From Sphagnum compactum (lineage: Eukaryota): 64,000 nucleotides of DNA. The translations under genes and the position numbers were made by a program. A model generated the notes under the pieces. That model worked only from the letters and a program-made list of their open reading frames with translations, searched no databases and was not told where the DNA came from. Below, one piece after another: positions 5,957-63,499 of the stretch (the first letter of the stretch is position 1; every line of letters begins with the position of its first letter). The DNA is taken from contig OZ234493.1 in assembly GCA_965153455.1 (NCBI GenBank), positions 20,698,213-20,762,212 on the forward strand, given 5' to 3'.

Positions 5957-8748
5957 CAGGCCTCATAAAACCTGGCATTCTATTTTTAGATGCCAACTTT
6001 GCCAGAATTAATTTCACCAAAGTGCCATAATTAAGTAATACAATTATTAAGAGCATCCCCACCGCAAGTCACTAAAACGATCACTATCACTATTTTTTAG
6101 TAGTCGGTCTAAGCCTCTGAGGGCCAAAATAGTGATTTGGGTGCAATCATTTTTGTGGTTTCCCACCGCGGAGTCACTAAACTGAAATCATCAGATTTAA
6201 GGGGGTCGTCGAGTGCGCATTCACTATAGTTTTATCAATCTCGTTGTGTGTGTGTGCGCGCGCGTTCACTGATCGGCCTGTTGATCCTGCTCTTCTCGAT
6301 CGCCCTGTTGATCCTGCTCTTCTCGATACTGCACATCTTGTTCGCACCTTGTTCGCACCTTGCATGTCATCATGAATCGACACACCGTTTCAGGACAAAC
6401 ACGCTGTGGAATATGGTCTTCAACCGGTGCAGCGATCGGTAGGCGGCGTGATTACGACTGTGCAATGCCTTTTATGTGTCCACATCGGGCGCGAGAAGCA
6501 TGAAGGTCCCGGTGTGAAACGCCAACGCACCAAGAACACGCAGCTGTTCCAGTTCCCGTTCCGACTCGAGGCCTACAAAAATCATCACGAATCTCAACAT
6601 CACGAAGACTGGACTAGTTATCAATTGCTTTCGCATCAAGAGAAGGCTGCATTCTTCAAGAAAAAGGAGGTCTCTGGCATTCACATTTTCTTGGACAAGG
6701 ACAAGGATAGCCTGCAGTTCGTCATTTCGAGGCCTACGATCGTCGATGATGTGGTGGGAGATTTATTTTTCCATCCGGAGGAAGACGAAGAAGACGATGC
6801 GTCCGAACCGATCACGAAGGCCAACGCCATGAAGCTGTTCAAACCGCAGGAGGACGGATCATACCTGGTGATGATCAAGAACTCTCTGCGATTCGACCTC
6901 GCAATTCGGCACGTTTCTATTGGGTTGTCATTTCGGCAGACATCCAAGGTGATTGAACAACATCGTTTGGTGACCAAGAATGCCAAACTCAACGGCGTCA
7001 ACGACCACATGGTCGGTCAGTTCGTTCGCGTTCTCCTTGCCGTCTCCCTGCAGATCATCTCCGATGTTTTCACGGATCCAGCGGTTTGGGCGTTTTCACT
7101 AGCTACTGATGCAAGCACTCATTTGGGTGTTCCTCTCCTTGATCAGCGGATTCGCGTGTGCGTGAAAGGCGTGCTCTACAACCTTCACCTCGTCCTCGTT
7201 CCATTCTTCGAACGACATACCGCTCAGAACTACGTGAAGCTCATCAAGATTCTGCTCAACACCGTGTCTCCATCCTGGCGCGAAAAAGTCATTTCGATCA
7301 GTTCGGATGGAGAGAACACCATGACTGGTCGACACGCTGGTGTTGTCACATTGCTGAAGAATGAGTGCTCGAATCATGTGCTTCGCATTTGGTGCGTCCC
7401 TCACCAGCTCGATATCGTTGTCAAGAATGCCACACATGGGGTGTTGGACGAGGCGTTCTACAAGGTTGCCCACGCGTTCTCTGTGCATCTTCGTGCTCAG
7501 CAAATCCTCATCACCGAAATGGGTTCCAAGTGCCCGAAGGACACGACGCGGTGGGTCGCATTCGGCAGTATTCTACACTGGCTTCTGGAACACCGTCGTC
7601 GATTGATGATTCACGTGGCCGACAAGCGACCGGTTCAAGCGCCATCCACGCAATGGTGGGTTATCGTGGGAGCGCTAGCACCTTTGTTCGAGCGGATCGC
7701 CGTCACATTTGCCACGCTCCAGTCTCCGAACTTAGTAATCTCTCAGCAGCGCCAAGAGGTGTCGAACCTGATGGCGGACATTGCAGCCGGTTTGGACATT
7801 CGCTCTACTGTGGATGCTGCGTTGATCAACGAGATCGATCCCACCACGATCATTCAGCGAGATGGCTGGATCGTCACCAAAAATGCCGTTGTCATGCACA
7901 TCCGCGATCAAGGCTCGTGGGCACGCGATTTGTACAACGAGCTTTTCGACATTGAAAAAGAGCAAACATTGCAGGAGATTTGCATCTTTTCGCTTTCCAT
8001 TGTGGCGGACGGATTGCAGATCCAGGCGGAGCGTGATTCCAACAACAATGCCAGGGAATTGGAAGCGCCCCCCGTGATGCCAGTGGATCTCGTCAAAATG
8101 CGTCCTAGTGTGTTCATCAGCGAAGTAGTGGATCAATACCGCGGGCACCTAGCCAAACACTGGAGTGCGGACTTGATTAATAAGGCGGAGAGCGAACACC
8201 GTGAACTACTCGCTGTCTACGCGCGCGAGCCGAATGTGAAGGCTGCCCTCGACAAGCACGACAAGAAGACGTTCTTTAACGAGACGTGGGACTGCTTGAA
8301 GGGGCACTTCATGTAGCTGCGTCAGCTGTGCGATGGATTGGCAACAGCGTTCCCGAATACGACGTCCGTCGAGAGTGACTTTTCCATCGTTAAATGGGAG
8401 AAAAACGACTCCCCTAGCAGCCTGACGAGTTTGTCCCTCGTGGGCATTTTGCACGCGAAGCAGTTCGAGCAAATCAAAATGATCAAGCGCCAATCTTTCG
8501 CTTGAATAACAGTGCGAGTTTGTCTCCATGTCCATTCCATTCAACATATTCTTTGCATAGTTGTGTTCCGTTTGCGATAGCCGCGAGAATGGTAGTAGCG
8601 ATGTCCGTTTTGATTTTATCTTCTAGTAGGGGGAAGCCCGTTACGGAAAATAAAGCATATGCCAGATGTGCCAGTATTAAGGCGACAAATGTGCCAGAAT
8701 TAATTTAATTCTGGCAAAGTTGGCATTTGCCAGGTTTTATGAAGCCTG
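5957..8748 (+). mobile_element. Young GC-rich hAT-type DNA transposon (element B) nested in element A
   Basis: 21-bp TIRs CAGGCCTCATAAAACCTGGCA / reverse complement CAGGCTTCATAAAACCTGGCA, plus subterminal inverted ATGCCAACTTTGCCAGAATTAA. 8-bp TSD GGTTATAC (5949-5956) / CGTTATAC (8749-8756). Confidence 0.92.
6364..8505 (+). pseudogene. Intronless hAT-like DDE transposase of element B (713 codons) with only two nonsense lesions
   Basis: ATG 6364, in-frame TGA 6373-6375 and TAG 8314-8316, no frameshift, final TGA 8503-8505. Motifs SLATDAST (D1), SSDGENTMTG (D2), WCVPHQLD (CxxH), TTRW, and C-terminal FPNTTSVESDFS (E). Confidence 0.88.
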
Positions 8749-9260: not shown

Positions 9261-10619
9261 AACAATTGATGATGAAGAAGAATCCATCTTTGGGGTAGTG
9301 ACCTCAAGTGAAACTACTTTGCAAAGGTTGTTAAAGAATGAATTATCTTTATTCCATCATTTGTTAATGAAACCAGAAGACATTATTCTACCTTTAACTT
9401 GGTGGAAGACCCACGAAGCTCGATTTCCCAACCTTTCTTTTGTGGTTCAACGAGTTCTTAGGATTCTTGGGTCCCAAATCGAAATGAAGAGAATCTTTAA
9501 TGTTGCTGGAGTGTTGACAAGTCTATCACATTGTAAGTTAGGAGTTGACAACCTAGACAAACTTGTAATGATCATGAAGAATTGGCCAATTGATGCACGG
9601 ATAGATAGCCCAAGAAAAGGGCAGTCCATTATTGAATTTTTGGCTGAAGAAACAAATATCATTGACAAAACTGATAAATTGTTGGGTGTAGATGGTTATT
9701 TCAATATTGATGTCGAACTAGCTTAATGCACACAAAAGTTGATGAACATTTTGTTTAATTTTTTCAGGAGCCATGTTGCTTTGATTAGGAATCTAGTTGT
9801 GTTAACTTCAATGGCCAGATGTAATGGTCAGCTCAGTTCTTTGGTTCTAATTTGATGAATGTCCCTATGTCCTTTTTCAATTCTTGATTTAGAATTCCAA
9901 TAATTGTCCAAACTTTGCACATATTTTTGAACTTACAATTTTGCATGATGATGATGTTTTGGCAAGTTTGTAAGGATTCTTATTTTAAAAATTTATCATG
10001 GCGAACACTCATACACATGGTAGCTCTAAGTTCATTGACCTTTTTAGGTTAGTATGTGTTGATGTGGGATGTGTATGTGTGTTTGCATGTTTAGGCAAAG
10101 TTTTTTTATCAACACTTATAATAAAGTTTTGCTTTGTAATAATATTATTAACTATAAATAAGTAATTATAAATAATACATATAATTACATTAATTAGTTG
10201 TAATAATTATAGAAACATTACTCACAAATATTATGATGTAATAACAATTATTTATTGTATATAAGTAATTATAAAAATTGAATACTCTAATTGATTGTAT
10301 TATGATCCTTGGAAATACATTAATTATTTTACTTACTTTAATTACAATAAAATTATTATAATTTTTTTAAATCATATTCATAATTAATAACTTTAAGTTC
10401 TAAATCATGATTAATTAAGTTCCATTATAAATTATGAAACTATTATAATTAATATATTAATTAATAAATTATAGTTAGTTTACAATAATTAGTCATTGAT
10501 TACAAGAATTAATGTTTATTTTTTAAAAACTATTAATTATTACTATTAAAATGTATGGAGTGATAATAATAATATATTTAAAATGTGTAACTATAAATAA
10601 AACACACAATAATTTAGGA

Positions 10620-14600: not shown

Positions 14601-15594
14601 ACCCCCCCCTTTTTTTTTTGGCTTGCATTTGTTTTTTCCCATTGTAAATTCACACTGTCTGCAATGGGAAAGCCATTCCAAGATTTGAATTTGATCTGCA
14701 AAAGATAGTTTGTCTTGGAGTTGTTTCGTCCCCCCTCTTTGCCTTGCTCCTCATCTCAAACGCATCTCAAACGCATCTCAAACCCTAATCACAACAGAGC
14801 CTCTTTTTTGATGTGCCCATCATGGAGGTGTTGTGTACCAGTTTGTATGGTTGTCATCCAGCAAATCTCATGTGATTAGATTTCAAGGACTGAAATGTCC
14901 TACTGCCCTGGTCCAAGAAAGGATTGAAACTATATGGCAAATTGGGAAATTTGTGTCTTGCCATTTGTGTATTGTTTTTCATCTTTCTGGCTAGCAAAGG
15001 TTCAGAGAAGGCAATGATAGAAAACTACTGGTATGAATTGTAGTGTTAGTGTGAGAGAATACTACACAATGGCAATGCATGTCAGACAAAGAGAGAGCCA
15101 GATGCTACACTAGAAAGTTGGCATGAACTTGCTCTGCCAAGTCATGAATTTGTGGGATAAACAGTTGATCTAATTATAGCAGAATCACAAATCCATTGAG
15201 TCTCTGTTTTTTCTTATCAGAGTGCTTGTGTGTATGCAAAGTCAAACCTTCAATTGTACATTCTCTTTTCCTGTCAAATCTTTCGCTAGAATTTTTGTTT
15301 TTGCTCTCATTTTCTTATGATTCTGAAAACTGGCAGCTGAAGTTCATCACAACTGGAATTGGATCCCTGGATACATACACGGCCCCCACCATAACTGGTC
15401 TTTTAGTTTACAAGGAGTATTTTAGCTGGCATTTTAAGTTCAGCTGGGGAACTTGAGACATCCTGAGAAGATGTCTTTGACCAAGAGAGTCACTAAGATT
15501 GTCTAATGTGCCTTTTCTATGCTCTGTTGTTTGGAGGATTTGCAGGGTGCAATTCCCAACATTTGGAGCCATTGACACAAAGTGTGAAGCTCTA

Positions 15595-17118
15595 ATGGGG
15601 GATAGCTCTGCTCCCCAAGGTGAGATCAGGAGGGAAACAAATGAACATTTGCATGGACTAGCAGCAAGGAAACATCGAACCAAGTTACAGATCCTTCCTT
15701 TGGTAGCCCTCATCTTCTATGAGGTATCAGGAGGACCGTTTGGAGTGGAGGATGCGGTACAAGCAGGTGGACCTCTGTTAGCCCTTCTGGGGTTCATCAT
15801 CTTTCCTTTCATTTGGAGTATACCAGAGGCACTGGTAACAGCAGAGCTGGCAACAGCTTTTCCTGAAAATGGTGGATATGTCTTGTGGATATCAGCTGCA
15901 TTTGGGCCTTTTTGGGGTTTTCAGGAAGGATGGTGCAAATGGATCAGTGGAGTGACAGACAATGCCTTGTATCCTGTCCTCTTTTTGGATTATTTCAAAC
16001 TTGCTCTTCCAGTTTTTGGACATGGAGTGTTCCGGATCATAGCACTGCTGGTCATCACCCTCTCTCTCACATTTCTTAACTATAGGGGGCTTACCATTGT
16101 GGGAACCACAGCAGTGGTGCTCACAATCTTCTCACTCCTCCCCTTTTGTGTGTTATCAATTCTTGCCATCCCCAAGATAAGGGTCCGGAGATGGCTGGTG
16201 GTTGATTTTAGAACGACAGACTGGCGAACATACCTGAATACACTGTTTTGGAATCTCAATTATTGGGATTCAGTGAGCACTTTGGCAGGGGAAGTGGACA
16301 ACCCTAACAAAACCTTTCCAAAGGCGTTGCTATGGGCTGTCTTGCTGGTGATAGTAGCATATGTAGTGCCATTGGCAGCAGGCACAGGTGCATTGCCGCT
16401 TGATAGGGATAAATGGGACGATGGGTACTTTGCAGATGTTGGCATGGCTGTTGGAGGAATAGTGTTGAAGTGGTGGATTGAGTCAGCAGCTGCATTTTCT
16501 AACATGGGGTTATTTGAAGCTGAGATGAGCAGTGATTCATTCCAGCTCCTGGGCATGGCTGAGACAGGAATGCTCCCTAAGATATTTGCTATCCGATCCA
16601 AGTATGGGACACCCACACTGGGAATTTTGTTTTCTGCATCGGGAGTTCTTCTGTTGTCCTGGATGAGCTTCCAAGAGATTGTGGACTTCCTTAATTTTCT
16701 CTACTGCTGTGGCATGCTTCTTGAGTTTGCAGCCTTTATTTGGTTGCGAATGAAAAAGCCTGAACTGGTGCGGCCTTTCCGGATTCCAGTTGGCACAATA
16801 GGTGTAATCCTCTTGCTGCTACCAGCAACAGTGTTGCTGATTGTGGTCATGTGTATAGCATCCTGGAAGACAGTCGTCATCAGTATTGCAGTCTCAGTTT
16901 TAGGTTTCATCGCATATCCAGCACTGCAGCATGTGAAGGCCAAGAAATGGATGCAGTTTTTGGATGTAGATGAACCTAAAGTGCCTGAAGATGATGATGT
17001 GGATCCTGCTCTATCTCTGGATCCTGTTATATCTCCGGATCCTGTTATATCTCCGGATCTTGCTATATCTCTGCATCCTGAAGTGAGTGAGACAGAGATA
17101 ATTTCTTTGACTGAATAG
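15595..17118 (+). CDS. LAT/PUT-family polyamine / amino-acid permease (RMV1-like), single coding exon, 507 aa
   Basis: Family motifs [55 protein letters not shown] and [16 protein letters not shown]; multiple TM segments. First ATG at 15595 follows a 5'-UTR intron acceptor (tgcag, 15545). Confidence 0.95.
17002..17079 (+). repeat. Coding 18-bp tandem repeat (4+ copies) in the transporter C-terminal tail
   Basis: GATCCTGCTCTATCTCTG / GATCCTGTTATATCTCCG x2 / GATCTTGCTATATCTCTG encodes [24 protein letters not shown]. Confidence 0.9.
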
Positions 17119-27292: not shown

Positions 27293-28387
27293 GATGCACC
27301 CTTAAGTTTTTCTCAAGTTATTGGGAGTAAATTTTCAAAGTGAAAAACAAAAAGAAGGGAGAAAAAATGAGAATGTGGGGATACATCGTTAAAAGGAAAA
27401 ATTTATCAAAGTAAAATCGATAGTATTTATAATATGAGTAGTTGTAGGTTTGAAGTTATAATTCAAATTATTGTATAGTCATGTAATTTATTCATCGATC
27501 ATGTTGATTATTGGTTAGTTTATTGGGTGAATTTACTATTTATTATTTTTGAACAAAAACATTTACATAGTTTTTACAAAGTCATAAACATAAGAGGAAA
27601 ATTGAGACATTCATGTGTTTTGAATTCAAATATATTCAACTCAATTTTGAGAAGTGCAATTTCATTTTCAATTTCTATTTCTTGCATATACATTTGTGTT
27701 TTGTAGAATATGTTTGTTTTGATTACAAATTATAGAAGTTAATCACATATTAGTTTTTTAAAACTTTCATTATGTGTTTAAATTAAGGTCTAAAGGTTTT
27801 GAAGAAAGAAACATATTCCCTTTTCCATTTGGCAACCATCCCATGGAACAATTTTGATTAGTTTTTGGCTTGTGAACATTGATATAATTATTTGAAGGTT
27901 TAGTTTTTTTTTTATAAGACTAGAGGTATAATTTTGGAAGGTTTTGTCTATGTTGTAGAATTGAAATTTTGAATGGAATAGTGATATGCATTTGGTTTAA
28001 CCTATAATTAAATTTAATTCTAACTAGTGGAAGGTCTAGAATTTTAAAGTATACTAATTCTTTTTTTTAAATTTGGTAGTTAAGATCAATTTTTTAGAAT
28101 TATAACAAAATATGTACAAAAGGCAATACATGAAAGAACAAATCAAAAATAGGAGTGAAAAAATAATGCATTGCAAGTGATATTTTTTGAAAGGTTTACC
28201 AAAACAATTAGCACTAGTCTCATATATATAATATCGTTGGTTTTGTCCTCTTGCGGTGGTGTCCGGTCGTCCTTTCCATCCATCCGTCTCGTCTTCCATC
28301 CATCTAAGTTCTTCATCCCGAAAGAAGAAGATGATGGAAGAGGAGGAGGACAGATGGCAGCAACATGCAGCTCAGCTTTGCATGGTT

Positions 28388-28699
28388 GTCCTCTTGCGGT
28401 GGTGTCCATGCCGTCCCGTCTTCCTCCATTGTTGTGGAAAGTGGGGGATGCCAGGAAGAAGAAGAAGACTGTCCTCTTGCGGTGCCGTCCCGTCTTCCTC
28501 CATTGTTGTGGAAAGTGGGGGATGCCAGGAAGAAGAAGAAGACTGTCCTCTTGCGGTGCCGTCCCGTCTTCCTCCATTGTTGTGGAAAGTGGGGGATGCC
28601 ATGAAGAAGAAGAAGACTGTCCTCTTGCGGTGGTGTCCGGCCGTCCCGTCTTCCTCCATTGTTGTGGAAAGTGGGGGATGCCAGGAAGAAGAAGAAGAC
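28388..28699 (+). repeat. 74-bp tandem repeat x4 inside the Helitron 5' region
   Basis: Units start at 28388, 28471, 28545 and 28619 with GTCCTCTTGCGGTG, the same motif as the Helitron subterminal sequence at ~28245, and end GAAGAAGAAGAAGAC. Confidence 0.9.
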
Positions 28700-28727
28700 A
28701 AAGAAAAACAAGAAGAAGAAGAAGATG

Positions 28728-30520
28728 GATTGATGTGGGTTTTGGTTTTGTGCAGACGAATCGCCAGTGGAACAAGTGAGACAAACGGTTCCCAATACGG
28801 ATGATCCCAGTCTGCCGGTATGGACATTCTGGATGTGCACAATAGGCTTACTATTTTGTTTTTAGAAGGCAATTCTTGCTTGGAATTCCTGGAAGATGCC
28901 ATTAGAGAATTTGGAAATTCTTTCTCAACATGCTTTGCGTGTACTTTATGAAAGGTTTGAAGTTCTGAGGCTTTTGTCAGGATTTCAGTGTGAGGATTTT
29001 CCAGTGTTTCCAAACAACTTCATCACAAAGGTGGGTCATTTCATAATCACTTTTTTTTTAAAATTGAAAGAAAATTTCAATTCGAGTTTTTTGTTAACAA
29101 AATTTCTATTTAGGCCTAAGGATTAGAATCTTTTTATTATTTTGACTTAGGATTTTTAAAAATTGCCATTTTGGCTTGGGTTAGAATCTTTTTATTGTTT
29201 TGACTTAAGATTAACAAAAATTTAGCACTGAGGCTTACAATTAGGTTTAAAATTGGGCATTCTAAAAGATTCCTGAAAAACATTTCTCAAAATGCTTGAA
29301 AAATATTCATTAGTTTGAGAATCTTTATTCTGCCCAATATATTTTGGGTAGCTTATATAGGTTGATTTTTTTTCATTTTTGCTGAAGAATTTGGGAAATC
29401 AACAAATCCTATGCTCAGAAATATTCATGAGATTTTTTTTCTAAGATGCTTGAAAAAATTTCAGGCAATTTTGGAAATTTTAGCTTGCTTTGGAAAGTTA
29501 TAAATGCTGATTTTTATCGTTTCTGCCCAAAATATATTGGGCACTGGATGCTTGAAATTTATTGGCATTTTGGGAATTCTCATTTTGCTCAATAATAACC
29601 GGCACCTTATAAATGTTGAAGATTGATGTGGGTTTTAGTTTTGTGCAATACGGGGGAGGGACTGGAGGGACTGAAAGCATTGGAACAGGGTGGGAACGTG
29701 GACGAGTCGCCAATGGAACAAGTGAGACGAACGGTTCCCAATACGGATGATCCGAGTCTGCCGGTATGGACATTCCGGATGTGCACAATAGGCTTGTTAT
29801 TTTGTTTCTAGAAGGCAATTCTTGCTTGGAATTCCTGGAAGATGCCATTAGAGAACTTGGAAATTCTTTCTCAACATGTTTTGCGTGTACTTTATGAAAG
29901 GTTTGAAGTTCTAAGGCTTTTGTCAGGATTTCAGTGTGAGGATTTTCCAGTGTTTCCAAACAACTTCATCACAAAGGTGGGTCATTTCATAATCATTTTT
30001 TTTTAATTTAAAGAAAATTTCAATTCGAGTTTTTTGTTAACAAAATTTCAAAGTTTTTTTTCCTCTGGCGGATTGATGTGGGTTTTGGTTTTGTGCAGTC
30101 CTGGGGAGGGACTGGAGGGACTGAAAGCATTGGAACAGGGTGGGAACGTGGACGAGTCGCCAGTGGAACAAGTGAGACGAACAGTTCCCAATACGGATGA
30201 TCCCAGTCTGCCAGTATGGACATTCTGGATGTGGACAATAGGCTTGCTATTTTGTTTCTAGAAGGCAATTCTTGCTTGGAATTCCTGGAAGATGCCATTA
30301 GAGAACTTGGAAATTCTTTCTCAACATGTTTTGCGTGTACTTTATGAAAGGTTTGAAGTTCTGAGGCTTTTGTCAGGATTTCAGTGTGAGGATTTTCCAG
30401 TGTTTCCAAACAACTTCATCACAAAGGTGGGTCATTTCATAATCATTTTTTTTTAATTTAAAGAAAATTTCAATTCGAGTTTTTTGTTAACAAAAATTCA
30501 AAGTTTTTTTTCCTCTGGCG
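28728..30520 (+). pseudogene. Three tandem copies (28728-~29105, 29621-30070, 30071-30520) of a captured oligopeptide transporter (OPT) N-terminal fragment fused to an unidentified 165-nt exon
   Basis: VDESP(V/M)EQVRRTVPNTDDPSLPVWTF(R/W)M is the SPxxEVRxxVxxxDDP signature of OPT-family transporters. It is truncated after ~37 codons and followed by ag|AAGGCA...ACAAAG|gt. Confidence 0.85.
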
Positions 30521-49427: not shown

Positions 49428-52400
49428 ATGTTGGAGCCTACAGAGGATAAAAGTAATGAAGGACCTTCCTCAACTGTGGGAGAGAGGTCTCCTCCTGTCA
49501 ACAAGACAGTGACCACTGATCGGCTGGTTTACAAGTTAGTCAAGGTATGTGTTTCTTTACTCAAAGGACATGTGGTGTGCTTAAAAGGATATTTTCAGGG
49601 TGCAGGAGGTCCCCGATTACTACCCTCTATATTGGCTTCTCTATGCCTTAGGCTTAGATGCTTGCTTGTGCAAGGGTGAGCTAAAATGGAATGAAGCTTA
49701 CTCTCTCACAAGGAGCTTGAATGAGGATAATACTGAGTTATTTTATTAGTTTTTTCTCCTGAGTGCTAGCCAGCAACATGACCAAGTATTTCTATTGCTT
49801 CCAGAAATGTGAGAGAAACTCAGGACACATAATTGTGTGTAATTGTTTGCCTGGGTGTATTATTGTATGTCTACACCAACTTTTAGGAGCAGTGGGGAGT
49901 CATGGCAGCTAGTCACTGCTATTCACAATGATACTTTGTGAGTGACACTCATGAGGTTATTACCAGACTCACTCTTGTTGTGTTAGTTTTGGTTTTGCTG
50001 GAACTGGCACAACGTTTTAACTTCAAGTGTTATTGTGCAGTTTTCTCTACAATCTCATAGATATGTTCATTGCTTGATGCAGTCAGAAAATGATGCTGAG
50101 TAGATTGGCATATAGTCCACACTTGATACCATGACTGAATCAGGTGTCTTAGTTATTCGGTTGTTGCTTGGCATTACATCATAAATTTGACTATGATGAG
50201 GCAGGTTGGAGATGATGGATCAGTTCTTCCAGCCACAGAGGATGAAGTTTTCCAGTCATTGGTAGAGGGAAGCAGTGCTGGACTTCCACCCTCATATGCT
50301 GGAGGGAGTGATGTCAATGAGGATGATGAGGATGAAGAGGGAAGTGATGTATCTCTTGATTCTGACGAGGATGATTCAGATGGAAAGGAGGATCCATCAT
50401 GTCAGTGTATTTTCTGAACTTTCTGCTTTATTTGATCATTGTTGCTTTTTGCACATTGCTCCCATCTCTCCTACCCAGTCTACCAGTGGCAGGACTTCTA
50501 TTTGAGTGTATTCATGAGAGTTCTGTGTACTTGGATTGATGAGCACAACCTAATAGATTCACACCTTGCCAGGAACTTTTAATCTGTTTGCTCACATTTC
50601 TGGTTAATTTGGAAGGCCTCTAGAGGTTGTGGGTAACCTGTCTCAATTTGAATGGTTTGGCAAGCTTTGCATATGTGTGGAGGTCTCAGCAGTGAATGTT
50701 GTGTTCTGGATTGCAGTTCCCTCAGAAATGGATGACCTTGTGGCTGAAAAGAAGAAGCTGCTGTCACGACTTCAGGTACACCAAATACAAATGGCCAGAT
50801 TAATTTACTGTTTAAAGTGGTAGGAACAGCTGCGTAGGGCATGAGGACTCTGGGTGCATTTGCTGTAGTTTGCTAACTTTTTGAGCTTGCTGCACTGCTG
50901 ATGGAATAAATGTTGAAGGTGAAGGGTTCTCGGTTTCAACACCCTTGGATGGTGAAAGCCCGTAGGACAAAGAAACATCAAGATTCAAGAGTATGTACGC
51001 TGCATGTGTTTTCTTGTGAGCCTCAATAGCTTCTGTTTGCCTATTGAGGTCGTTCGGCTTTTGTAATTTGGAGATCTGGTCATGAGATATGATTGCTAGC
51101 AAGGTGCCTTTTGGCTTGCTGGTCCTGTAGTCTGTGGGCTAGAACAATGGTTGGTAGGCATGACTCGAATTTTCACTTGTCACTGACCTTGAGTTGCACA
51201 AAGGATACAGAAAATGGAGGTATGTTTGAAGTTGCTGTGGAAGCATTTGACATCTCCTCTGCATGGTGATACTCAAGCGGCTTCGCCTTCTTCATGAATG
51301 TGAAGCTATGGTGAGAATTTAGAAAACCATGTTGTTTTGCTGCAATTGCTTTGAAACTTTGTGGCATCTGTGTCTGCAGGTTGTGGATACAATGCTGTTG
51401 AGAGTGGATGCAGAAGAGCAGCAGCGACTATCATTTGAAGACCAGGTTGGCAGTGTGCTTGGTCATGAGAGCAATTCATCTGCTTATCTCAATGCAGGTG
51501 ACACAAGTGGAGATTACAAGAGACAACGTCGACCCAATCCAAAATACTTTGATTTCAATGCTGGAAGTGACCCTGTTCCTTCTGCAACAATACTACCAAT
51601 GACATTGAACCCCAGTGTTGGAGAAGCTGCTGTGATAGGGACATCACCTGAAAAGCAGTCATCTGGCTCAGGTGTCATTCCTAGATCAACGTCTGGGTGG
51701 GGCCCTCAACGAAGTTCCATCCGAACTGCTGGTGCACACAGGGCAAGAACTGTAGTGGCTCAGAAACCTTTTACCCGAACACCGTCAAAAGTTCAGGCAC
51801 CAAGATCAGTAGTATTGCCTGCTGTAAACAGTATGCCCGACCCATCTTCATTGGAGAATCTTTCTATACGGGAGCTTCATGAGGCTTTTCGCAGCACCTA
51901 TGGTCGTGACACATCTGTTAAAGATAAGCATTGGCTAAAGCGCCAAATATCTGCTGGGTGGAGCAAACAGCATGATGCTGCCCTGAATGCAGGCTCACGT
52001 GCTTCACAAACTGATCTGAAAGTGAGGCCAGAGCAACAGTTGTCTGCTGAACAATCCCTCCCCTCATCAACTGCAGCTACAATAATGGTGAGTGAGAGGG
52101 ACACAGTCAATGAGGCTCAAGAACCAGGAACAAATGGTGTTGAATCAACTGAAGGGCTACTTACCAATGGTCTAGATGACAAGCAGTCACTGCACAGATC
52201 CGTACCTCTGGCAGTAATCTCTCCAGTTGAGGGGTTTAATGCATCGACTCCCAGCAGTTTGAATGAAGTGGCAGCTGGTGGTGGTCAAATAGCCATATTT
52301 GGTGAGGTGGTCAACACTGGGAAGCAGGTTGGTGTGAAAAGGCAGCGGAAGCCAAATCGTCGCTATGTTGAAGATGAAGGAGAGTCAAGTCCAGGCACAG

Positions 52401-55137
52401 TCCTAGGTAATGGCAGCAGGCCAGGTCCTGTTGGGAGTGATTCTGGTGGACATGGTTTGGGAACACCCTCTAGGCTTTCTTGGAGAACTGTTGTAACAGA
52501 TGGTCCAGCTGACCTTATTGGTCGACCTGGTACCTTGCGGGGTCCAACATTCCACAATGCTCGGGGAAATACTTTTCAAGGTCAACGCACCAAACCTACC
52601 AATGGTACTCTGGTATGTATCTGTTTCTGACACTGTTCATGCAACTATGATTGAGTAATTGCAATATTCCTTTTACTTGAGGATGCATGTGCTGGTCCCT
52701 GGAAGAATGGAGACATTTCACTGGGTTGTAGTGCAAAGTATCTTTTCCCTCTTGTGTTTTTTCACAGGAGTGAGGAATTCCTTTTTCCCCATGCTTGGAG
52801 AAACAGGTGGATCATTTCAGTCTGGGTTGGGTGCATACAGAAGCACAAAGCTGAAGGGAGGGCTGCAAAGCTTGTGAAGATGGCTCATTCTGCAGCACGA
52901 GCTGCACGCCATGACACTGAAGGGTCTGTCCGCAAAGTGAAGTTTCAATTACCTGCTGCACCAGGCAGGGAAAAGGTATTGTCAAGGCTTAGATTTTGCT
53001 TGTGATTCATGGTCAGTAATGTGTTGAAGAACACCACCCCTACCATTTTTTGCAACCTGCAGGTGCTTGATAATTGCATGCCACCCTTTTGAAAGCAAGG
53101 TGTGGATAGGAGCTCCTTAGATGACCAACTTAGAGGGAATTTCTCTGCAGGTGAACAGAAGATAAGTGCAGATTTCCAGTTTATGTGAAGTAACATCTGG
53201 CAAGAAGCAGATGATTTCCATACCCCTTTTACTTCTGGAGGGCATCTTGACTGTTGGTTCTTGAATGTTAATGTACTACTGTTTTGTTTTGTTTGTTTAT
53301 TTTTTTGGGTGCTTTTTTCCCTCACTTGTTTCCTTTCTCTTTTGAAGAATTTCTGGTTATTGGCGGTTATTGGCCAGGATGGATTGTACAAGTTGAATGG
53401 AGAGGCTGGGGATCAAGTATCATGCTTGTTGCCAGTGTCCTCAGGGCATTCTGCAGATCTCCTGCAACCTCTGGCTCCAGACAATGGGGAAGATGCTGCT
53501 GGAGAACAGCTTGTTGCAACAGTTCCAACTGCCAATGGTGGAACCCGTCGGAAACATCACCGTCCATGGACTCTTCGTGAAGTCATGACATTGGTTGAGG
53601 GTGTAGCACGTTGTGGTGGAGGAAAGTGGGCTGATATAAAGAAGCTGGCTTTTTCTTCTGTTGGTTACAGGACAGCTGTTGATTTGAAGGTAGACTTTTC
53701 TCCTAGGAGACTTACTGCTGGGATGTGACTTTTGAGATTGAACATGACCAATTCAATGGTAGACATTTATCTTGCTGATCTGTCTGACTTGGTAGTTTTC
53801 AACATGACATGCAATATGTATCCTGTATACTGGATTTGCTCACCTATTTCATGACTAATATGAGTTTGCTATGGTAGGATTTATTCCTTTGTTGAGCTTG
53901 CAGATTTTCATTCTGCTTGAAGTTGTATCATGTTGCACTGGTATACCTACAAGACTGTCTTTTGCTTACAGGATAAATGGCGAAACTTACTGCGAGCTAG
54001 CAGAGCTCAGCTCTATCCACCCAAGCAGGTATGTTGCTCCCATGAGAACTGATGTTTCTGTTATCTTTCACTGGGTATTCTGAATTTGGAGTTATAAACA
54101 GTCATTTTGCAGCTCTGTGTACCTCTCAAGAGTTCTGTTTAACTCAAATGGTGAGTTCCATCATTCTTTTGAAAGGAAAGAGCTACTCTTTGAAGATGGT
54201 ATTGGAATGAATGAGAGAATCACTTAAACAAAGAAAGATCTGTGTCTAGAGTTTCAGCATTTGAATCTTTAGAAGGATTATTTCAATGGTTGCTTGTTTC
54301 CAAGTGGGGAGCTTTTTGAAGTCTAGTTTGTCCTGAGAGTCTTATCTTCATATATTTTCCAGTGTTAACTCTCTCTTCTCATTCTCTGACCTTCTTTTCT
54401 GACTCTCTTTCCCCATTTCTGGTTTGGATTTCCCTATCTTTTTGCTTCTTCTTGTTTCCATTCTTTATGTTTGTTGAGCTAGATAGCATCATGGAAGTTT
54501 CCTGTTACTTCCAGATTTGTGATAGAGACTTCAGTATGGTATTGATTGTTACAGTGGCCTAATGACTGTCATCAACTGATGACGTCAGTGGGGCTTTTCT
54601 CATAGTCACTGCCTGATACATTGCTGTTGATAGTTGCAGAACATTGCATCACTTTTTATTCTCCACTGTTACGTTTTTTTAGTGTTTTCTCTGCTCTGCT
54701 TTCTCTCTTAAAGTTTGCTGTTATGGTCAGTTGACATGTGGTTTGAAATCTGTCTACCTTGTTATCAGGTCATTTCACAAATGATAATCAGGTTGACTTA
54801 ATCCACAAGGACGGAGAGTTCTCATTTCTGACAGAGATATACACTTTGCTGTCTTTTCATAGTATGTCCTGGCTTTTTTTTTCAGTCTATTAGAATGTCA
54901 GTCTCTGGTAGGACTGACCAGATGATGGCTTTCTTCACCATACTTGGTCTATGTCTTAACACATGGGTTGGGGAATGATCCTAATAGGGAGAAAGGAAGA
55001 AGCAGTTCACTGCAGCTATTCCAGCTACCATCTTAGCCCGAGTTCGTGATTTGGCAGCCCTTCAACACCAAATGCCCACAGGTGCAGGTGCTGCAGGGAG
55101 TACAAGTCGCAGCAGGAGAAGTGTACATAGAAAATAG
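49428..55137 (+). CDS. TRF-like (TRFL) protein with C-terminal telobox Myb domain, ~752 aa; exons 49428-49544, 50205-50400, 50717-50775, 51380-52612, 52841-52975, 53378-53689, 53972-54028, 54988-55137
   Basis: In-frame GT-AG splicing. RRKHHRPWTLREVMTLVEGVARCGGGKWADIKK...RTAVDLKDKWRNLLRAS is the telobox Myb. VYKLVKVGDDG and LSIRELHEAFRSTYGRDTSVKDKHWLKRQI are typical of the TRFL3/6-like subgroup. An in-frame TAG lies upstream of ATG 49428. Confidence 0.9.
49755..50066. repeat. Short interspersed repeat, copy 2 (intron of the TRFL gene)
   Basis: Colinear similarity to 17397-17714. Confidence 0.6.
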
Positions 55138-60675: not shown

Positions 60676-63499
60676 ATGGTTCTGAGCTTCGCGAAACTCG
60701 CACTATGTAGTAATGCTGCTGTTGCACAGCAGCAGCAGCAGCAGCAGCATCTCTCACTGCCCATTTCTTCGCCCTCTCTTGTTCTCCATTGCACAGCGTG
60801 TGGTGATTCTGGTGCTGCAAGGCGACATACCACTCGCTTGTCCGCCGAGGACGTCCCACTGAGGAGCTTTCAAAACTGGAAGATGCTGGTTTGGAGCATG
60901 CCGCATCATCGTGGCATTGCTTCACGAGCGGGAGGATGCGTGAATCTCAGGAATTGGCAGTTACGGTGCATGGATCCGTCACAAGAGGAGGAGCGAGCGG
61001 AGGCGAGTGGAGAAGGCATAGTGCAGCAGCCACGATCTGAGAGAGTACAACAGCAAGGTGTGGACGGTTTTCAGAGAGCGAAACTTGCTGTGTTTCTATC
61101 AGGAGGAGGCTCTAATTTCCGAGCTCTTCACGCGGCCACTCTACAAAACGCCATCTATGGCGACGTTGTTGTTGTGGTTTCCGATAGACCTGGTATGTAT
61201 TCTTTCTTCCTATGTTTTTTCCCCTTGATCTTTTGCTCCTCTTTTCGCTTCTAGATCTTCAATGGATGTCTCATCGATCAACAGACAGAAAAGGAGTAGT
61301 TATAGATTGCAGAGGTTGCAAAATCAGACCACTCTTTTTTTTCCTTGTTTGCTTACTCCTTAACTTTCTTGTAAATCTTCAATCTGTTGCGTTTTTTTTG
61401 TGTGGCCTAGGTTGCAAAGGTTGCGAATATGCACAGGAGCACAAAATCCCCATTCTTTCATATCCAAAAAACAAGTATGCTCAGGATGGCATTTCTGCAT
61501 CTCAGCTTGTAGATTCTCTGAGGTGTACCTTCATTTCCTTCTTCATCCTTGCTGCTACCTGGAAATGTGATTATCCTTGAATTCTGATATGTGCACTGTA
61601 ATGATGGCATCTCATCTCTGTTTGCTCCTAGGATTCTCTCAGGTGTACCTGCATTTTCCTTCTTCATCCCTACTACCTTCAATCTGGATATGTGAATTTG
61701 TCCCTGACGATTCTGGTTTGGATACATTGTGGTTTTGACACCCATCTGCTGCTATGCTTTGCAGAACAGAGAATGGCCTAACAGTGCTGTTTGTAGGCAC
61801 TCAGGTGTTGATTACATCTTATTGGCTGGCTATTTGAAGATGCTACCCACTGAGCTGGTTCAAGTGTTTCCTCGGGCCATCCTGAACATACATCCTGCTT
61901 TGCTACCTTCATTTGGTGGCAAGGGGTTTTATGGGATGAAAGTGCATGAAGCTGTGATTCGATCTGGTGCCCGGTGAGTTTTTGGGGGTGGAAGTAGAAC
62001 GGTGGGATTATTGCCTTTTCTTCATTGACTCAATATCAGTCGAGCCATAACTCTTCTCTGTTTGACATTTAGCAGCTTCTCTGCTTGACATTTGGTTGCT
62101 TAGGGTAATCTTTTCATACTCGATTATATTGATGAAAAGAAACATTCAGTCATCTTGGAGCTTCTGGTATCTCTATACTTGTATTTTATGATTGTAGACC
62201 TGGGATGAAGATTGCTCTGGTGACCTACAGGGGTTTTTAAAGTCTGATGATGACATTCAGAAGCTGAGTCTAATAGCTGTGTTGGTACCTTGGCAAATCT
62301 TCTAGAACTGGACTGAACCAAGAGTTGTGGATTTTAGCCTAGATTTTTCCGTTCTTTTACCATGAAGTTTCTGAATCTGTAACATAACTTGTTCAACAAA
62401 AGTGGTATTGGCTATGATGACCTACATTTATTTTCACAGTTTGTCTGATAATGATGAACTTGCAATGTCTGAGCCATGTATTGTGGTCCTAAAGTCCAGA
62501 ACCCCAACTGTACATTGAGTGCACAAGTGGTGCTTGAATCTGTAGCATGAACTTGTTCATCAAAAGTGCTATTGGCTATGATGACCTATATGTATTTCAC
62601 AGTTTGTCTGATAATGATGAACTTGCAATGTCTGAGCCATGCATTGTGGTCCTGAAGTCCAGAATCCCAACTGTACGTTGATTGCACAAGCGGAGCTTGA
62701 AGATTTTTCATTGACATGATTGTGTCTTAAGGTGTTTATAGTTAGTTTCACAAGGATAGGAGCTTTGTTTTCCATGTGGAATTGTCAAGGATTCCAGCAT
62801 ACCAGAGCCATTACATCTAAAAGGAAGATCCCACCATACCACCCAGAGATTTACTGTGTTACATTCAACATGATGACTGCAATACATCTGAGCTGCCATA
62901 TTGATGGAAAACACCTGTTTCTAATGTAACTCTTTGGTTGCTGTGGTGTGCACAGATATTCAGGTGCCACAGTGCATTTTGTGGATGAGGAATATGACAG
63001 TGGTCCTATCTTGGCACAGAGGGTAGTGCCAGTACTAGCTTATGATAGCCCCTCGGACTTGGCTGCAAGAGTCCTGAAGCAGGTTTGTTTTCTTCCAAAC
63101 ACCTATCATTGAATCCACATTGCTGATGTTGTAGGTGCAGTTTGACTGCAGTATGCTAACAGAAAGCTGTGAGAGAACAGCATTTGCATGTCTGTATTTG
63201 GGCTTGGACGAAAAACGTGGTGAAGTTGAAGGAAAACTGTAACCAATATTGGGGCTTAGATGTCCAATATCAACTTCCAGTAGGGTGGGCTCCTGGTTAG
63301 TAGAGTTTTTAAGTGTTGTTCAGTATATGTTTCAGTTGTGCAAACACAAACCTCTTGTGGTTGGGGGGTCTGTTTGGCTTTGCAGGAGCATATGTTATAC
63401 ACTGAAGCAGTGGCAGCACTTTGTGAGGATCGTATATTCTGGCGAGAAGATGGTGTCCCTTTAATTCGCAAGTCATGGGATGAGGCAGAATACTTGTAA
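60676..63499 (+). CDS. PUR3: Phosphoribosylglycinamide formyltransferase (GAR transformylase), plastid-targeted, 348 aa; exons 60676-61192, 61411-61522, 61797-61973, 62956-63082, 63386-63499
   Basis: LAVFLSGGGSNF, ILLAGYLK, ILNIHPALLPSFGGKGFYG, SGATVHFVDEEYDSGPILAQ and EH motifs of PurN. Long transit-peptide-like N-terminus containing a CAG/polyQ run. Confidence 0.95.
62195..62272 (+). ncRNA. Candidate intronic box C/D snoRNA 1 (PUR3 intron 3)
   Basis: Terminal stem TAGAC/GTCTA, box C GGGATGA (1 mismatch, 62202), D' CTGA 62244, C' ATGATGA 62247, D CTGA 62264. The D'/C' spacing is atypically tight. Confidence 0.5.
62409..62476 (+). ncRNA. Candidate intronic box C/D snoRNA 2a
   Basis: Stem TGGC/GCCA in K-turn register, perfect box C ATGATGA (62414), D' CTGA (62445), C' ATGATGA (62451), D CTGA (62469). 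Confidence 0.75.
62573..62639 (+). ncRNA. Candidate intronic box C/D snoRNA 2b (tandem paralogue of 2a within a ~164-bp duplication)
   Basis: Same four perfect boxes and TGGC/GCCA stem. Both guide regions are identical to 2a; differences fall between box C and the D' guide. Confidence 0.75.

What the first reader, a model, noticed from the sequence alone, without database searches (positions are those of the whole stretch)
62195..62700. Unannotated box C/D snoRNA cluster in an intron of the purine-biosynthesis gene PUR3
Seen: two ~67-nt units with all four consensus boxes (C ATGATGA, D' CTGA, C' ATGATGA, D CTGA), closed by a TGGC/GCCA stem in the exact K-turn register. They arose by a ~164-bp tandem duplication (~62372-62535 / 62536-62700). 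A third unit lies upstream (TAGAC/GTCTA stem). The 2a/2b guides (TTTCACAGTTTGT before D', ACTTGCAATGT before D) are identical, while substitutions occur elsewhere. Established: plants have intronic polycistronic snoRNA clusters, usually in ribosome-related hosts. Inference from rRNA recalled from memory: unit 1 guides could pair with LSU ACUUUGAAAA (D', one G-U) and UCUGAAUGUCA (D). The 2a/2b D' guide resembles the 18S 5' ACUGUGAAA region but could be orphan. A GAR-transformylase host would couple nucleotide supply to ribosome biogenesis.
Basis: partly seen in the sequence, partly recalled or inferred. Interest (0 to 1): 0.75.

Follow-up and report, generated by a model that had tools for sequence, protein, structure and literature searches.

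The report
Intronic box C/D snoRNA cluster, Sphagnum

Summary
Units 2a (62409-62476) and 2b (62573-62639) on the + strand each have a 4-bp TGGC/GCCA stem, C ATGATGA, D' CTGA, C' ATGATGA and D CTGA. A strict pattern finds only these two in the window and none in 200 random windows. They lie in a 163-bp tandem duplication with 14 differences: 0 of 57 columns in boxes, guides and stem, 14 of 107 elsewhere (p=0.0025). Unit 1 (62195-62272) is a diverged paralogue. Its ancestral C-box position is ruined, but a new stem and C box GGGATGA lie upstream.

The host is a Sphagnum PurN/GART gene, and the cluster sits in sense in its 981-nt third coding intron. No Rfam family reaches threshold.

Compared by eye with Arabidopsis rRNA from a paper supplement, the unit 2 D' guide pairs 12 bp with 18S (N+5 = A79). 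The unit 1 D guide pairs 11 bp with 25S (U2206). Neither is a mapped Arabidopsis site.

Verdict: real, ordinary plant intronic snoRNA cluster; new members of a known kind. Expression, Sphagnum targets and the proposed purine-ribosome coupling are untested.

The parts
61797..61975 (+). Host gene coding exon 3 (PurN/GART, ...HSGVDYILLAGY...NIHPALLP...GAR)
   Evidence: tblastn of the S. magellanicum protein P0002, residues 207-266, 100% identity. Pfam Formyl_trans_N positions 80-129, E=6.3e-15. NCBIfam best hit PurN TIGR00639.
61976..62956 (+). Host intron 3 (981 nt, GT...AG) holding the whole cluster
   Evidence: Exon ends. Pfam profile positions 129/131 abut across it. GTGAGT at 61976 and CAG at 62954-56.
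62957..63084 (+). Host gene coding exon 4 (YSGATVHFVDEEYDSGPI...)
   Evidence: 100% identity to P0002 residues 266-308.
62195..62272 (+). Unit 1, candidate box C/D snoRNA (78 nt). Stem TAGAC 62195-99 / GTCTA 62268-72; C box GGGATGA 62202-08; D' guide 62234-43; D' CTGA 62244-47; C' TGATGA 62248-53; D guide 62254-63; D CTGA 62264-67. The relic of the ancestral C box reads CTGGTGA at 62217-23.
   Evidence: Relaxed pattern: 1 locus in the window, 0 in 60 random windows. Paralogue of unit 2: local alignment score 24, reached by 0 of 300 shuffles; best non-self hit of model R1, 14.5 bits, E=0.6 over the whole window; repeat family D3, 73% over 33 nt. Rfam gives only noise-level hits (sR15, 15.8 bits).
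62372..62534 (+). Tandem repeat copy A (163 nt), contains unit 2a
62409..62476 (+). Unit 2a, box C/D snoRNA gene (68 nt) with all four consensus boxes and a 4-bp terminal stem in K-turn register (3-nt bulge U-A-U before the GA)
   Evidence: Rfam full-length sub-threshold hits to C/D models, best SNORD53_SNORD92 at 30.0 bits against a gathering score of 46. The terminal stem is present in the MFE fold.
62535..62697 (+). Tandem repeat copy B (163 nt), contains unit 2b
62573..62639 (+). Unit 2b, box C/D snoRNA gene (67 nt). Stem 62573-76 / 62636-39; C box 62578-84; D' guide 62595-607; D' 62608-11; C' 62614-20; D guide 62621-31; D 62632-35.
   Evidence: Rfam best hit SNORD60 at 27.2 bits against a gathering score of 42.
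62859..62931 (+). Possible decayed snoRNA relic: stem GTTACATT/AATGTAAC, ATGATGA, CTGA, TTGATGG, and a D-like CTAA instead of CTGA
   Evidence: Read. Similarity of 62870-62893 to the C'-guide-D part of unit 2a is marginal (p about 0.07). Rfam hits of 16-17 bits with E of 1-4. Not found by model R1 at E up to 10. Treated as uncertain.

Best explanation
The third coding intron of a Sphagnum PurN/GART (PUR3) gene carries a polycistronic cluster of box C/D snoRNA genes in the sense orientation. There are two young, near-identical copies (2a, 2b) and an older diverged paralogue (unit 1).

Inferred mechanism, from what is established for plant snoRNAs. The RNAs are transcribed by Pol II as part of the PUR3 pre-mRNA. 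Snu13/15.5K binds the C/D kink-turn and recruits NOP56, NOP58 and fibrillarin. Endonucleolytic cuts in the roughly 100-140-nt spacers and exonucleolytic trimming up to the protein-protected terminal stems release RNAs of 67-78 nt. Each RNA then guides 2'-O-methylation of the nucleotide paired to the fifth guide base upstream of D' or D.

The best-supported target is 18S rRNA at the equivalent of Arabidopsis A79 (unit 2 D' guide). The next is 25S at the equivalent of U2206 (unit 1 D guide). The unit 2 D guide has no convincing rRNA target in the Arabidopsis proxy.

The cluster grew by local tandem duplication. After the older duplication the guides drifted to new specificities and unit 1 rebuilt its terminal kink-turn further upstream.

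Shown: motifs, register, duplication, the selective pattern of substitutions, the host gene and intron, and complementarity to Arabidopsis rRNA. Inferred: expression, processing, protein binding and methylation.
For: 1. Strict C/D architecture: 2 hits in 64 kb on both strands, both here, and 0 in 200 random windows.
2. Between 2a and 2b, 0 of 57 columns differ in stem, boxes, guides and linkers, against 14 of 107 elsewhere (p=0.0025). This is the pattern expected if both copies are kept functional.
3. All 47 C/D-family rows among the 50 Rfam rows at E up to 10 in 61900-63100 are on the + strand, the strand of the host gene. For 2a and 2b they align end to end with the models.
4. The host is a PurN gene whose exon is 100% identical to Sphagnum proteins, with clean GT-AG exon borders around the cluster.
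5. Unit 1 is homologous to unit 2 (0 of 300 shuffles reach its score) yet has its own 5-bp stem, C box, D', C' and D (0 of 60 random windows).
6. Arabidopsis 18S positions 76-87 (CAGACTGTGAAA) pair with guide positions 2-13 of units 2a and 2b, 11 Watson-Crick pairs plus one G-U. Arabidopsis 25S TCTGAATGTCA pairs 11 Watson-Crick bp with unit 1 (matched by eye). My own estimate of the chance of each in about 5.4 kb of rRNA is about 0.003 and 0.001 per guide and register, or about 0.03 and 0.015 after allowing 4 guides and 3 registers.
7. Intronic snoRNA clusters, including some in metabolic genes, are documented in Arabidopsis (passages of PMC2875012).
Against: No RNA evidence of any kind was available.

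No Rfam family reaches its gathering score (0 hits in the whole window; best 30 bits against 46), so there is no homology support from known families.

No orthologous intron could be compared, because no plant genome collection was at hand.

The rRNA used is Arabidopsis, not Sphagnum. The 5' part of the 18S match lies in a stretch that differs in Chlamydomonas (UUAUACUGUGAAACU), so the duplex could be as short as 9 bp in moss. It also has a G-U next to the target nucleotide.

Neither 18S A79 nor 25S U2206 is among the 117 mapped Arabidopsis sites.

Three of the 11 bp of the unit 1 D-guide duplex use C' box bases.

The unit 2 D guide has at best 11 bp with 3 G-U (25S, count 3316-3326 in the supplement text) or 8 Watson-Crick bp (18S). 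By my estimate this is no better than chance.

The folds are not more stable than shuffles (z = -0.81, -1.15 and +0.53). That is usual for C/D snoRNAs but adds nothing.

Taking the whole RNA against the flank, the substitution difference is not significant (p=0.16).
Confidence: 0.8

Rival explanations
1. The units are snoRNA-derived pseudogenes: copies made by local duplication that are no longer expressed or assembled. This applies mainly to unit 1 and possibly to one of 2a and 2b.
For: In unit 1 the position homologous to the unit 2 C box reads CTGGTGA, which loses the GA needed for the kink-turn. Its D' and C' boxes abut with no loop. Rfam gives it only noise-level scores. The intron holds further possible relics (62859-62931, p about 0.07; 62063-62077, p about 0.10). 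A young duplicate can look conserved simply because it is young.
Against: 0 of 57 against 14 of 107 differences between 2a and 2b (p=0.0025) is hard to get from neutral decay of either copy. Unit 1 has a replacement 5-bp stem and a C box with GAUGA intact at the right distance; by my estimate that is under 0.1% by chance, and 0 of 60 random windows match the whole pattern.
Confidence: 0.12
2. They are genuine, expressed box C/D snoRNPs, but orphans with respect to rRNA. They would act on other RNAs (snRNA, tRNA, mRNA, or the host pre-mRNA in cis), or serve as sources of smaller RNAs.
For: The predicted rRNA sites are not mapped sites in Arabidopsis. The unit 2 D guide has no convincing rRNA or snRNA partner in the Arabidopsis sequences, yet it is perfectly kept in both copies. 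No Rfam family match. Orphan C/D snoRNAs are reported in Arabidopsis (passages of PMC8583080; PMC2875012).
Against: Two of the four distinct guides have 11-12 bp matches to rRNA that are unlikely by chance (my estimate). Lineage-specific rRNA methylation sites are common in plants: 40 of the 117 Arabidopsis sites were newly reported there.
Confidence: 0.07
3. A chance constellation of short motifs in an AT-rich intron, or part of a dispersed repeat or transposon.
For: The boxes are short (4-7 nt). A loose pattern without the internal boxes occurs about 0.4-1.2 times per random window.
Against: The full pattern occurs 0 times in 200 random windows. Model R1 finds no further copy in the 64 kb; the best hit outside the intron is 13.8 bits with E=0.86, so it is not a dispersed repeat within the window. 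The substitutions avoid the functional parts.
Confidence: 0.01

Closest known systems
Plant intronic polycistronic snoRNA clusters. Examples: Arabidopsis snoR79a/b/c in an intron of At1g31860 (histidine biosynthesis), snoR90a/b in intron 3 of At2g33430, snoR155a-c in RPL23A intron 2 (passages of PMC2875012). Rice and Chlamydomonas intronic clusters are known to me only from titles in reference lists and from recall.
   Same: Several snoRNA genes in sense orientation inside one intron of a protein-coding gene. Paralogous copies made by local duplication. Spacers of about 100-140 nt. The host may be a metabolic enzyme.
   Different: The Arabidopsis examples I saw listed are H/ACA snoRNAs; these are box C/D. 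The host here is PurN/GART and the species a peat moss. Processing from this intron has not been shown.
Generic methylation-guide box C/D snoRNAs. The nearest Rfam models are SNORD53_SNORD92, SNORD18, SNORD60 and SNORD34.
   Same: Length 67-78 nt, terminal stem, C, D', C' and D boxes at model-consistent positions, and full-length alignment to the models.
   Different: Scores of 26-30 bits against gathering scores of 38-46. The similarity lies in the boxes and stem only, and the guide regions do not match. These units are not members of those families.
AtsnoR118 / At3gCDbox86.1 (yeast snR76, human HBII-180), the guide for 25S Cm2198
   Same: The unit 1 D guide pairs with the same conserved 25S stretch, a few bases downstream.
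   Different: The N+5 nucleotide is U2206, 8 nt 3' of Cm2198, so it is a different site. Rfam snoR118 scores only 15-17 bits, and on another part of the locus.
Arabidopsis snoRNA isoform families made by gene duplication that predict new methylation sites (Barneche et al. 2001; title seen in the reference list, content recalled)
   Same: Duplicated copies keep the boxes while guides drift. In unit 1 against unit 2 the D' guide differs by two substitutions and a 4-nt indel that shifts the register.
   Different: Here the older copy also lost its original C box and uses a new stem and C box upstream.

Membership tests
Box C/D snoRNA (class) | C box RUGAUGA near the 5' end and D box CUGA near the 3' end | tested here: met
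   2a and 2b: ATGATGA and CTGA, exact. Unit 1: GGGATGA (1 mismatch, GAUGA intact) and CTGA.
Box C/D snoRNA (class) | Terminal stem of 4-5 bp flanking C and D, in a register that allows a kink-turn | tested here: met
   TGGC/GCCA with a one-base linker gives a 3-nt bulge before the GA. Unit 1 has TAGAC/GTCTA with a two-base linker, a 4-nt bulge that is slightly off the canonical register. The stems appear in the MFE folds.
Box C/D snoRNA (class) | Internal D' and C' boxes | tested here: met
   2a and 2b: CTGA-TA-ATGATGA. Unit 1: CTGA directly followed by TGATGA with no loop, which is atypical.
Box C/D snoRNA (class) | Guide of at least 10 nt upstream of D or D', complementary to rRNA or snRNA, with the target at N+5 | tested here: inconclusive
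   Tested against Arabidopsis rRNA and snRNA text, by eye. Unit 2 D': 12 bp (one G-U), 18S A79. Unit 1 D: 11 bp, 25S U2206. Unit 1 D': 10 bp (one G-U), 25S U378 or U379. Unit 2 D: nothing convincing. Sphagnum rRNA was not available.
Box C/D snoRNA (class) | Accumulates as a stable RNA of about 60-100 nt bound by Snu13, NOP56, NOP58 and fibrillarin | not testable with these tools
   No RNA-seq or RIP data were accessible.
Any curated Rfam snoRNA family | Covariance-model score at or above the family's gathering score | tested here: not met
   0 hits in the whole window at gathering thresholds. The best sub-threshold hit is 30.0 bits against 46.
Plant intronic polycistronic snoRNA cluster | Two or more snoRNA genes in sense orientation within one intron of an expressed gene | tested here: met
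   Three units on the + strand inside intron 61976-62956 of a + strand PurN gene. Expression of the host was not tested.
Plant intronic polycistronic snoRNA cluster | Conservation of the snoRNAs in the orthologous intron of related species | not testable with these tools
   No plant genome DNA collection was available. Genome contigs holds bacteria and archaea only and was not used.
snR76 / SNORD88 / AtsnoR118 (25S Cm2198 guide) | N+5 nucleotide of a guide is 25S C2198 (Arabidopsis numbering) | tested here: not met
   The unit 1 D guide places N+5 on U2206, 8 nt downstream.

The most novel reading that the evidence does not exclude
The cluster encodes moss-lineage-specific methylation guides that add rRNA 2'-O-methylations absent from angiosperms (18S A79 equivalent, 25S U2206 equivalent). 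It was caught in the act of making new specificities by tandem duplication, guide drift and relocation of the C box.

In addition, the unit 1 D' guide (10 bp to 25S ACTTTGAAAA) may represent the kind of guide that is missing for 25S Um378. That site is mapped in Arabidopsis and listed for a second plant, but has no known snoRNA in Arabidopsis. The N+5 nucleotide is U378 or U379, depending on a one-base numbering uncertainty that I could not resolve.
Probability: 0.3. Interest if true: 0.45.

Novelty: new member of a known kind. Interest (0 to 1): 0.3.

Why it matters
The practical value is for annotation. Peat-moss genomes appear to lack described snoRNAs: 9 papers hold both words and none is on the subject. 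These loci could seed a Sphagnum snoRNA catalogue and a prediction of lineage-specific rRNA methylation.

The locus is also a clean small example of how plant snoRNA families grow. It shows a recent 163-bp tandem duplicate under visible constraint beside an older paralogue with changed guides and a rebuilt kink-turn.

It does not change what is known about snoRNA biology. The proposed link between purine synthesis and ribosome biogenesis has no support beyond co-transcription.

Tried and rejected
1. Rfam. At gathering thresholds over the whole window there were 0 hits. In E-value mode there were only generic box-level hits, so no family assignment.

2. Literature search for three 16-nt guide-plus-box strings: 0 papers.

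3. Supplements of Bhattacharya et al. 2016 (PMC5122169), which hold plant snoRNA FASTA files, alignments and target files. I searched for guide strings and their complements. There was no snoRNA with these guides; the only hits were unrelated 9-10-mers in U14, snoR72, snoR81 and snoR103. Every file that gave a hit was flagged 'cut when stored' (files 2, 6, 7 and 9), so this absence is weak evidence.

4. Supplement of PMC8583080 searched for the guides: 0 hits. Its PDF tables (S1-S4, snoRNA sequences) could not be read and may bear on whether a similar Arabidopsis guide exists.

5. Unit 2 D guide against known sites. It lines up near 18S Um615 (8 bp, 3 G-U) and near the orphan site 18S Um1554 (8 Watson-Crick bp on CATTGCAA). 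N+5 falls on U616 and U1558, so both were rejected as off-register.

6. Unit 1 D' guide against 25S ACTTTGAAGGCC (12 bp, 3 G-U). N+5 is 3 nt from the mapped Cm1479, so this was rejected as a match to that site.

7. Model R1 over the window, to look for more copies: none outside the intron.

8. The fragment at 62859-62931 and the 62063-62077 similarity are not significant (p about 0.07 and 0.10).

9. A scripted target scan with rRNA was left out, because the Arabidopsis rRNA is not a window, locus or stored protein sequence. The matching was done by eye on 50-nt lines. Weaker matches, or matches that cross a line end, may have been missed for the unit 1 guides and the unit 2 D' guide. For the unit 2 D guide I read every TTG in both rRNAs, including those at the line joins I saw.

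Orthologous introns therefore stayed unchecked.
Full report
**What is there.** Between 62195 and 62700 the + strand carries three units with box C/D snoRNA architecture.

Units 2a (62409-62476, 68 nt) and 2b (62573-62639, 67 nt) read: TGGC, T, ATGATGA, a 10-11-nt spacer, TTTCACAGTTTGT, CTGA, TA, ATGATGA, ACTTGCAATGT, CTGA, GCCA. With one linker base between the stem and the C box, the bulge before the GA is three bases.

I wrote a strict pattern: a 4-bp Watson-Crick stem within 2 nt of RTGATGA, an internal CTGA followed within 14 nt by TGATGA, and a terminal CTGA next to the stem. On both strands of the window it finds exactly these two loci. It finds none in 200 first-order Markov random windows of the same size. 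The two loci are copies of one another, so this counts as one event.

**The duplication.** 62372-62534 and 62535-62697 are tandem copies of 163 nt, with 12 substitutions and 2 one-base indels in 164 columns. I partitioned the columns by snoRNA anatomy before counting. Stem, boxes, guides and linkers show 0 differences in 57 columns. Everything else shows 14 in 107 (Fisher p=0.0025).

The three differences inside the RNA (62425, 62428, 62431) all fall in the spacer between the C box and the D' guide. The coarser contrast of whole RNA against flank is not significant (3 of 68 against 11 of 96, p=0.16). The constraint is therefore visible only at the level of the functional elements.

**Unit 1 (62195-62272).** It has a 5-bp stem TAGAC/GTCTA, D' CTGA 62244-47, C' TGATGA 62248-53 and D CTGA 62264-67.

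It is a paralogue of unit 2:
- The local alignment 62214-62253 against unit 2a scores 24, and 0 of 300 shuffles reach that.
- A covariance model built from 2a and 2b gives it the best non-self score in the window, though only 14.5 bits with E=0.6 over 128 kb searched.

In that alignment the position of the unit 2 C box reads CTGGTGA. The original kink-turn is therefore gone. Twelve to nineteen bases upstream there is a replacement: the TAGAC stem arm, two bases, then GGGATGA (62202-08). This matches RUGAUGA except at position 2 and keeps GAUGA. A pattern loosened to admit unit 1 finds this one locus (reported for two C-box readings) and nothing in 60 random windows.

Two points weigh against unit 1. 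D' and C' abut with no loop, and Rfam gives it only noise-level scores. I rate it more likely functional than not, but clearly below 2a and 2b.

**Host.** The flanking exons translate to a formyl transferase (Pfam PF00551, E=6e-15 and 5e-11, with profile positions 129 and 131 abutting across the intron). The best NCBIfam model is PurN. Exon 61804-61974 is 100% identical to proteins of Sphagnum magellanicum and S. balticum, and the next relatives are other bryophytes and land plants annotated as chloroplastic GAR transformylase.

tblastn of the S. magellanicum protein places five coding exons. The cluster lies in the third coding intron, 61976-62956, 981 nt, GT-AG. Exon 1 is 94% identical, so the window is a Sphagnum, but not that exact sequence. 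The host and the snoRNA units are all on the + strand.

**Family.** No Rfam family reaches its gathering score anywhere in the window. In E-value mode over 61900-63100, 47 of the 50 rows are C/D families and all 47 are on the + strand. For 2a and 2b they are full-length alignments driven by stem and boxes (best 30.0 bits against 46, SNORD53_SNORD92). The guide regions do not match.

Searches for the guide strings found nothing:
- full-text papers: 0;
- the supplements of a plant snoRNA family survey (every file that gave a hit was flagged as cut when stored);
- the readable part of the Arabidopsis C/D catalogue supplement (its PDF tables could not be read).

**Targets.** No plant rRNA is in the tool collections. 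However, the supplement of Azevedo-Favory et al. 2021 (PMC8583080) prints the Arabidopsis 5.8S, 18S, 25S and snRNA sequences. I did not put these into a script and matched by eye instead. The numbering of that paper's Table 1 runs one higher than the count in the printed text, from about 18S 599 onwards and from somewhere between 25S 49 and 398 onwards.

Results:
- **Unit 2 D' guide.** Positions 2-13 pair with 18S 76-87 (CAGACTGTGAAA), 11 Watson-Crick pairs and one G-U at position 4. N+5 = A79.
- **Unit 1 D guide.** It pairs with 25S TCTGAATGTCA, 11 Watson-Crick bp at positions 3-13, of which the last three lie in the C' box. N+5 = U2206 in Table 1 numbering.
- **Unit 1 D' guide.** It pairs with 25S ACTTTGAAAA, 9 Watson-Crick pairs and one G-U. 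N+5 is the third U, which is U378 or U379.
- **Unit 2 D guide.** Nothing convincing. The best candidates are 11 bp with three G-U near the 3' end of 25S, 9 bp with two G-U at 25S GCATTGCGA, and 8 Watson-Crick bp at 18S CATTGCAA.

By my own arithmetic, the first two matches have chance probabilities of about 0.003 and 0.001 per guide and register in 5.4 kb. That is about 0.03 and 0.015 after allowing four guides and three registers. The others are within chance.

18S A79 and 25S U2206 are not among the 117 mapped Arabidopsis sites. 25S Um378 is a mapped site with no guide found in Arabidopsis, and it is also listed for another plant in a 2024 review table (passages of PMC11542601). The one-base uncertainty keeps this a lead only (one search gave no help).

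The 5' half of the 18S match lies in a stretch that differs in Chlamydomonas. The Sphagnum sequence is therefore needed before the target can be called.

**Comparison with what is known.** Passages of Kim et al. 2010 (PMC2875012) list Arabidopsis intronic snoRNA genes and clusters. Most are in ribosomal-protein and eIF3G genes, but some lie in a histidine-biosynthesis gene and a plastid-development gene. The Arabidopsis C/D paper states that most C/D snoRNAs are organised in clusters.

An intronic, sense-oriented cluster enlarged by duplication in a housekeeping metabolic gene is therefore the usual plant pattern. The idea that this host couples purine supply to ribosome biogenesis rests on co-transcription alone, and I found nothing for or against it.

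**Verdict.** The locus is a real and ordinary plant snoRNA cluster, unplaced in any curated family. It has one plausibly moss-specific 18S guide and an instructive duplication history. It is a new member of a known kind and of low to moderate interest.

Noticed in passing
window 62859-62931 (+): A snoRNA-like relic in the same intron: an 8-bp stem GTTACATT/AATGTAAC, ATGATGA, CTGA, TTGATGG, and CTAA where a D box should be. 62870-62893 resembles the C'-guide-D part of unit 2a (p about 0.07). Rfam scores are 16-17 bits.
   Followed up: partly
window 62053-62098 (+): Two tandem 23-nt copies (83% identical, family D4). The first contains TGACATTTAGCAGCT, which resembles the D guide plus D box start of unit 1 (p about 0.10). 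It may be an older relic of the same family.
   Followed up: partly
window about 61510-61560 and 61630-61680 (+): The 3' end of coding exon 2 with its 5' splice site (GATTCTCTGAGGTGTACC...) is repeated about 120 nt downstream inside intron 2 as GATTCTCTCAGGTGTACC... This is a small local duplication that creates a pseudo splice donor (read).
   Followed up: no
window 60676-61193 (+): Exon 1 of the PurN gene is 94% identical to the S. magellanicum protein and has three more Q in a poly-Q run, while exons 3 and 4 are 100% identical. The window is a related Sphagnum sequence, not that record.
   Followed up: partly
window 6406-8316 and 9298-9726 (+): A 636-aa ORF with no Pfam or NCBIfam hit lies upstream of a 142-aa ORF carrying a hAT-family dimerisation domain (PF05699, E=2.9e-9). 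This is probably a hAT transposon or its remains.
   Followed up: partly
window 15499-17118 (+): An intronless 539-aa ORF of the amino-acid/polyamine permease family (PF13520, E=1.5e-36).
   Followed up: partly
window 53261-53728 (+): An ORF with a weak Myb-like DNA-binding domain hit (23.7 bits, just below the Pfam cut-off of 24.4). It is probably one exon of a larger gene together with 51329-52630.
   Followed up: no
window 28143-29013 (both strands): A block of internally repetitive sequence that gives long overlapping ORFs on both strands with repeated peptide motifs. It looks like a tandem or low-complexity repeat rather than genes.
   Followed up: no
PMC8583080 supplement (not the window): The rRNA sequences printed in the supplement count one base lower than the site numbers of the paper's Table 1, from about 18S 599 and from somewhere in 25S 49-398 onwards. 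Anyone mapping sites from that text needs to allow for this.
   Followed up: partly
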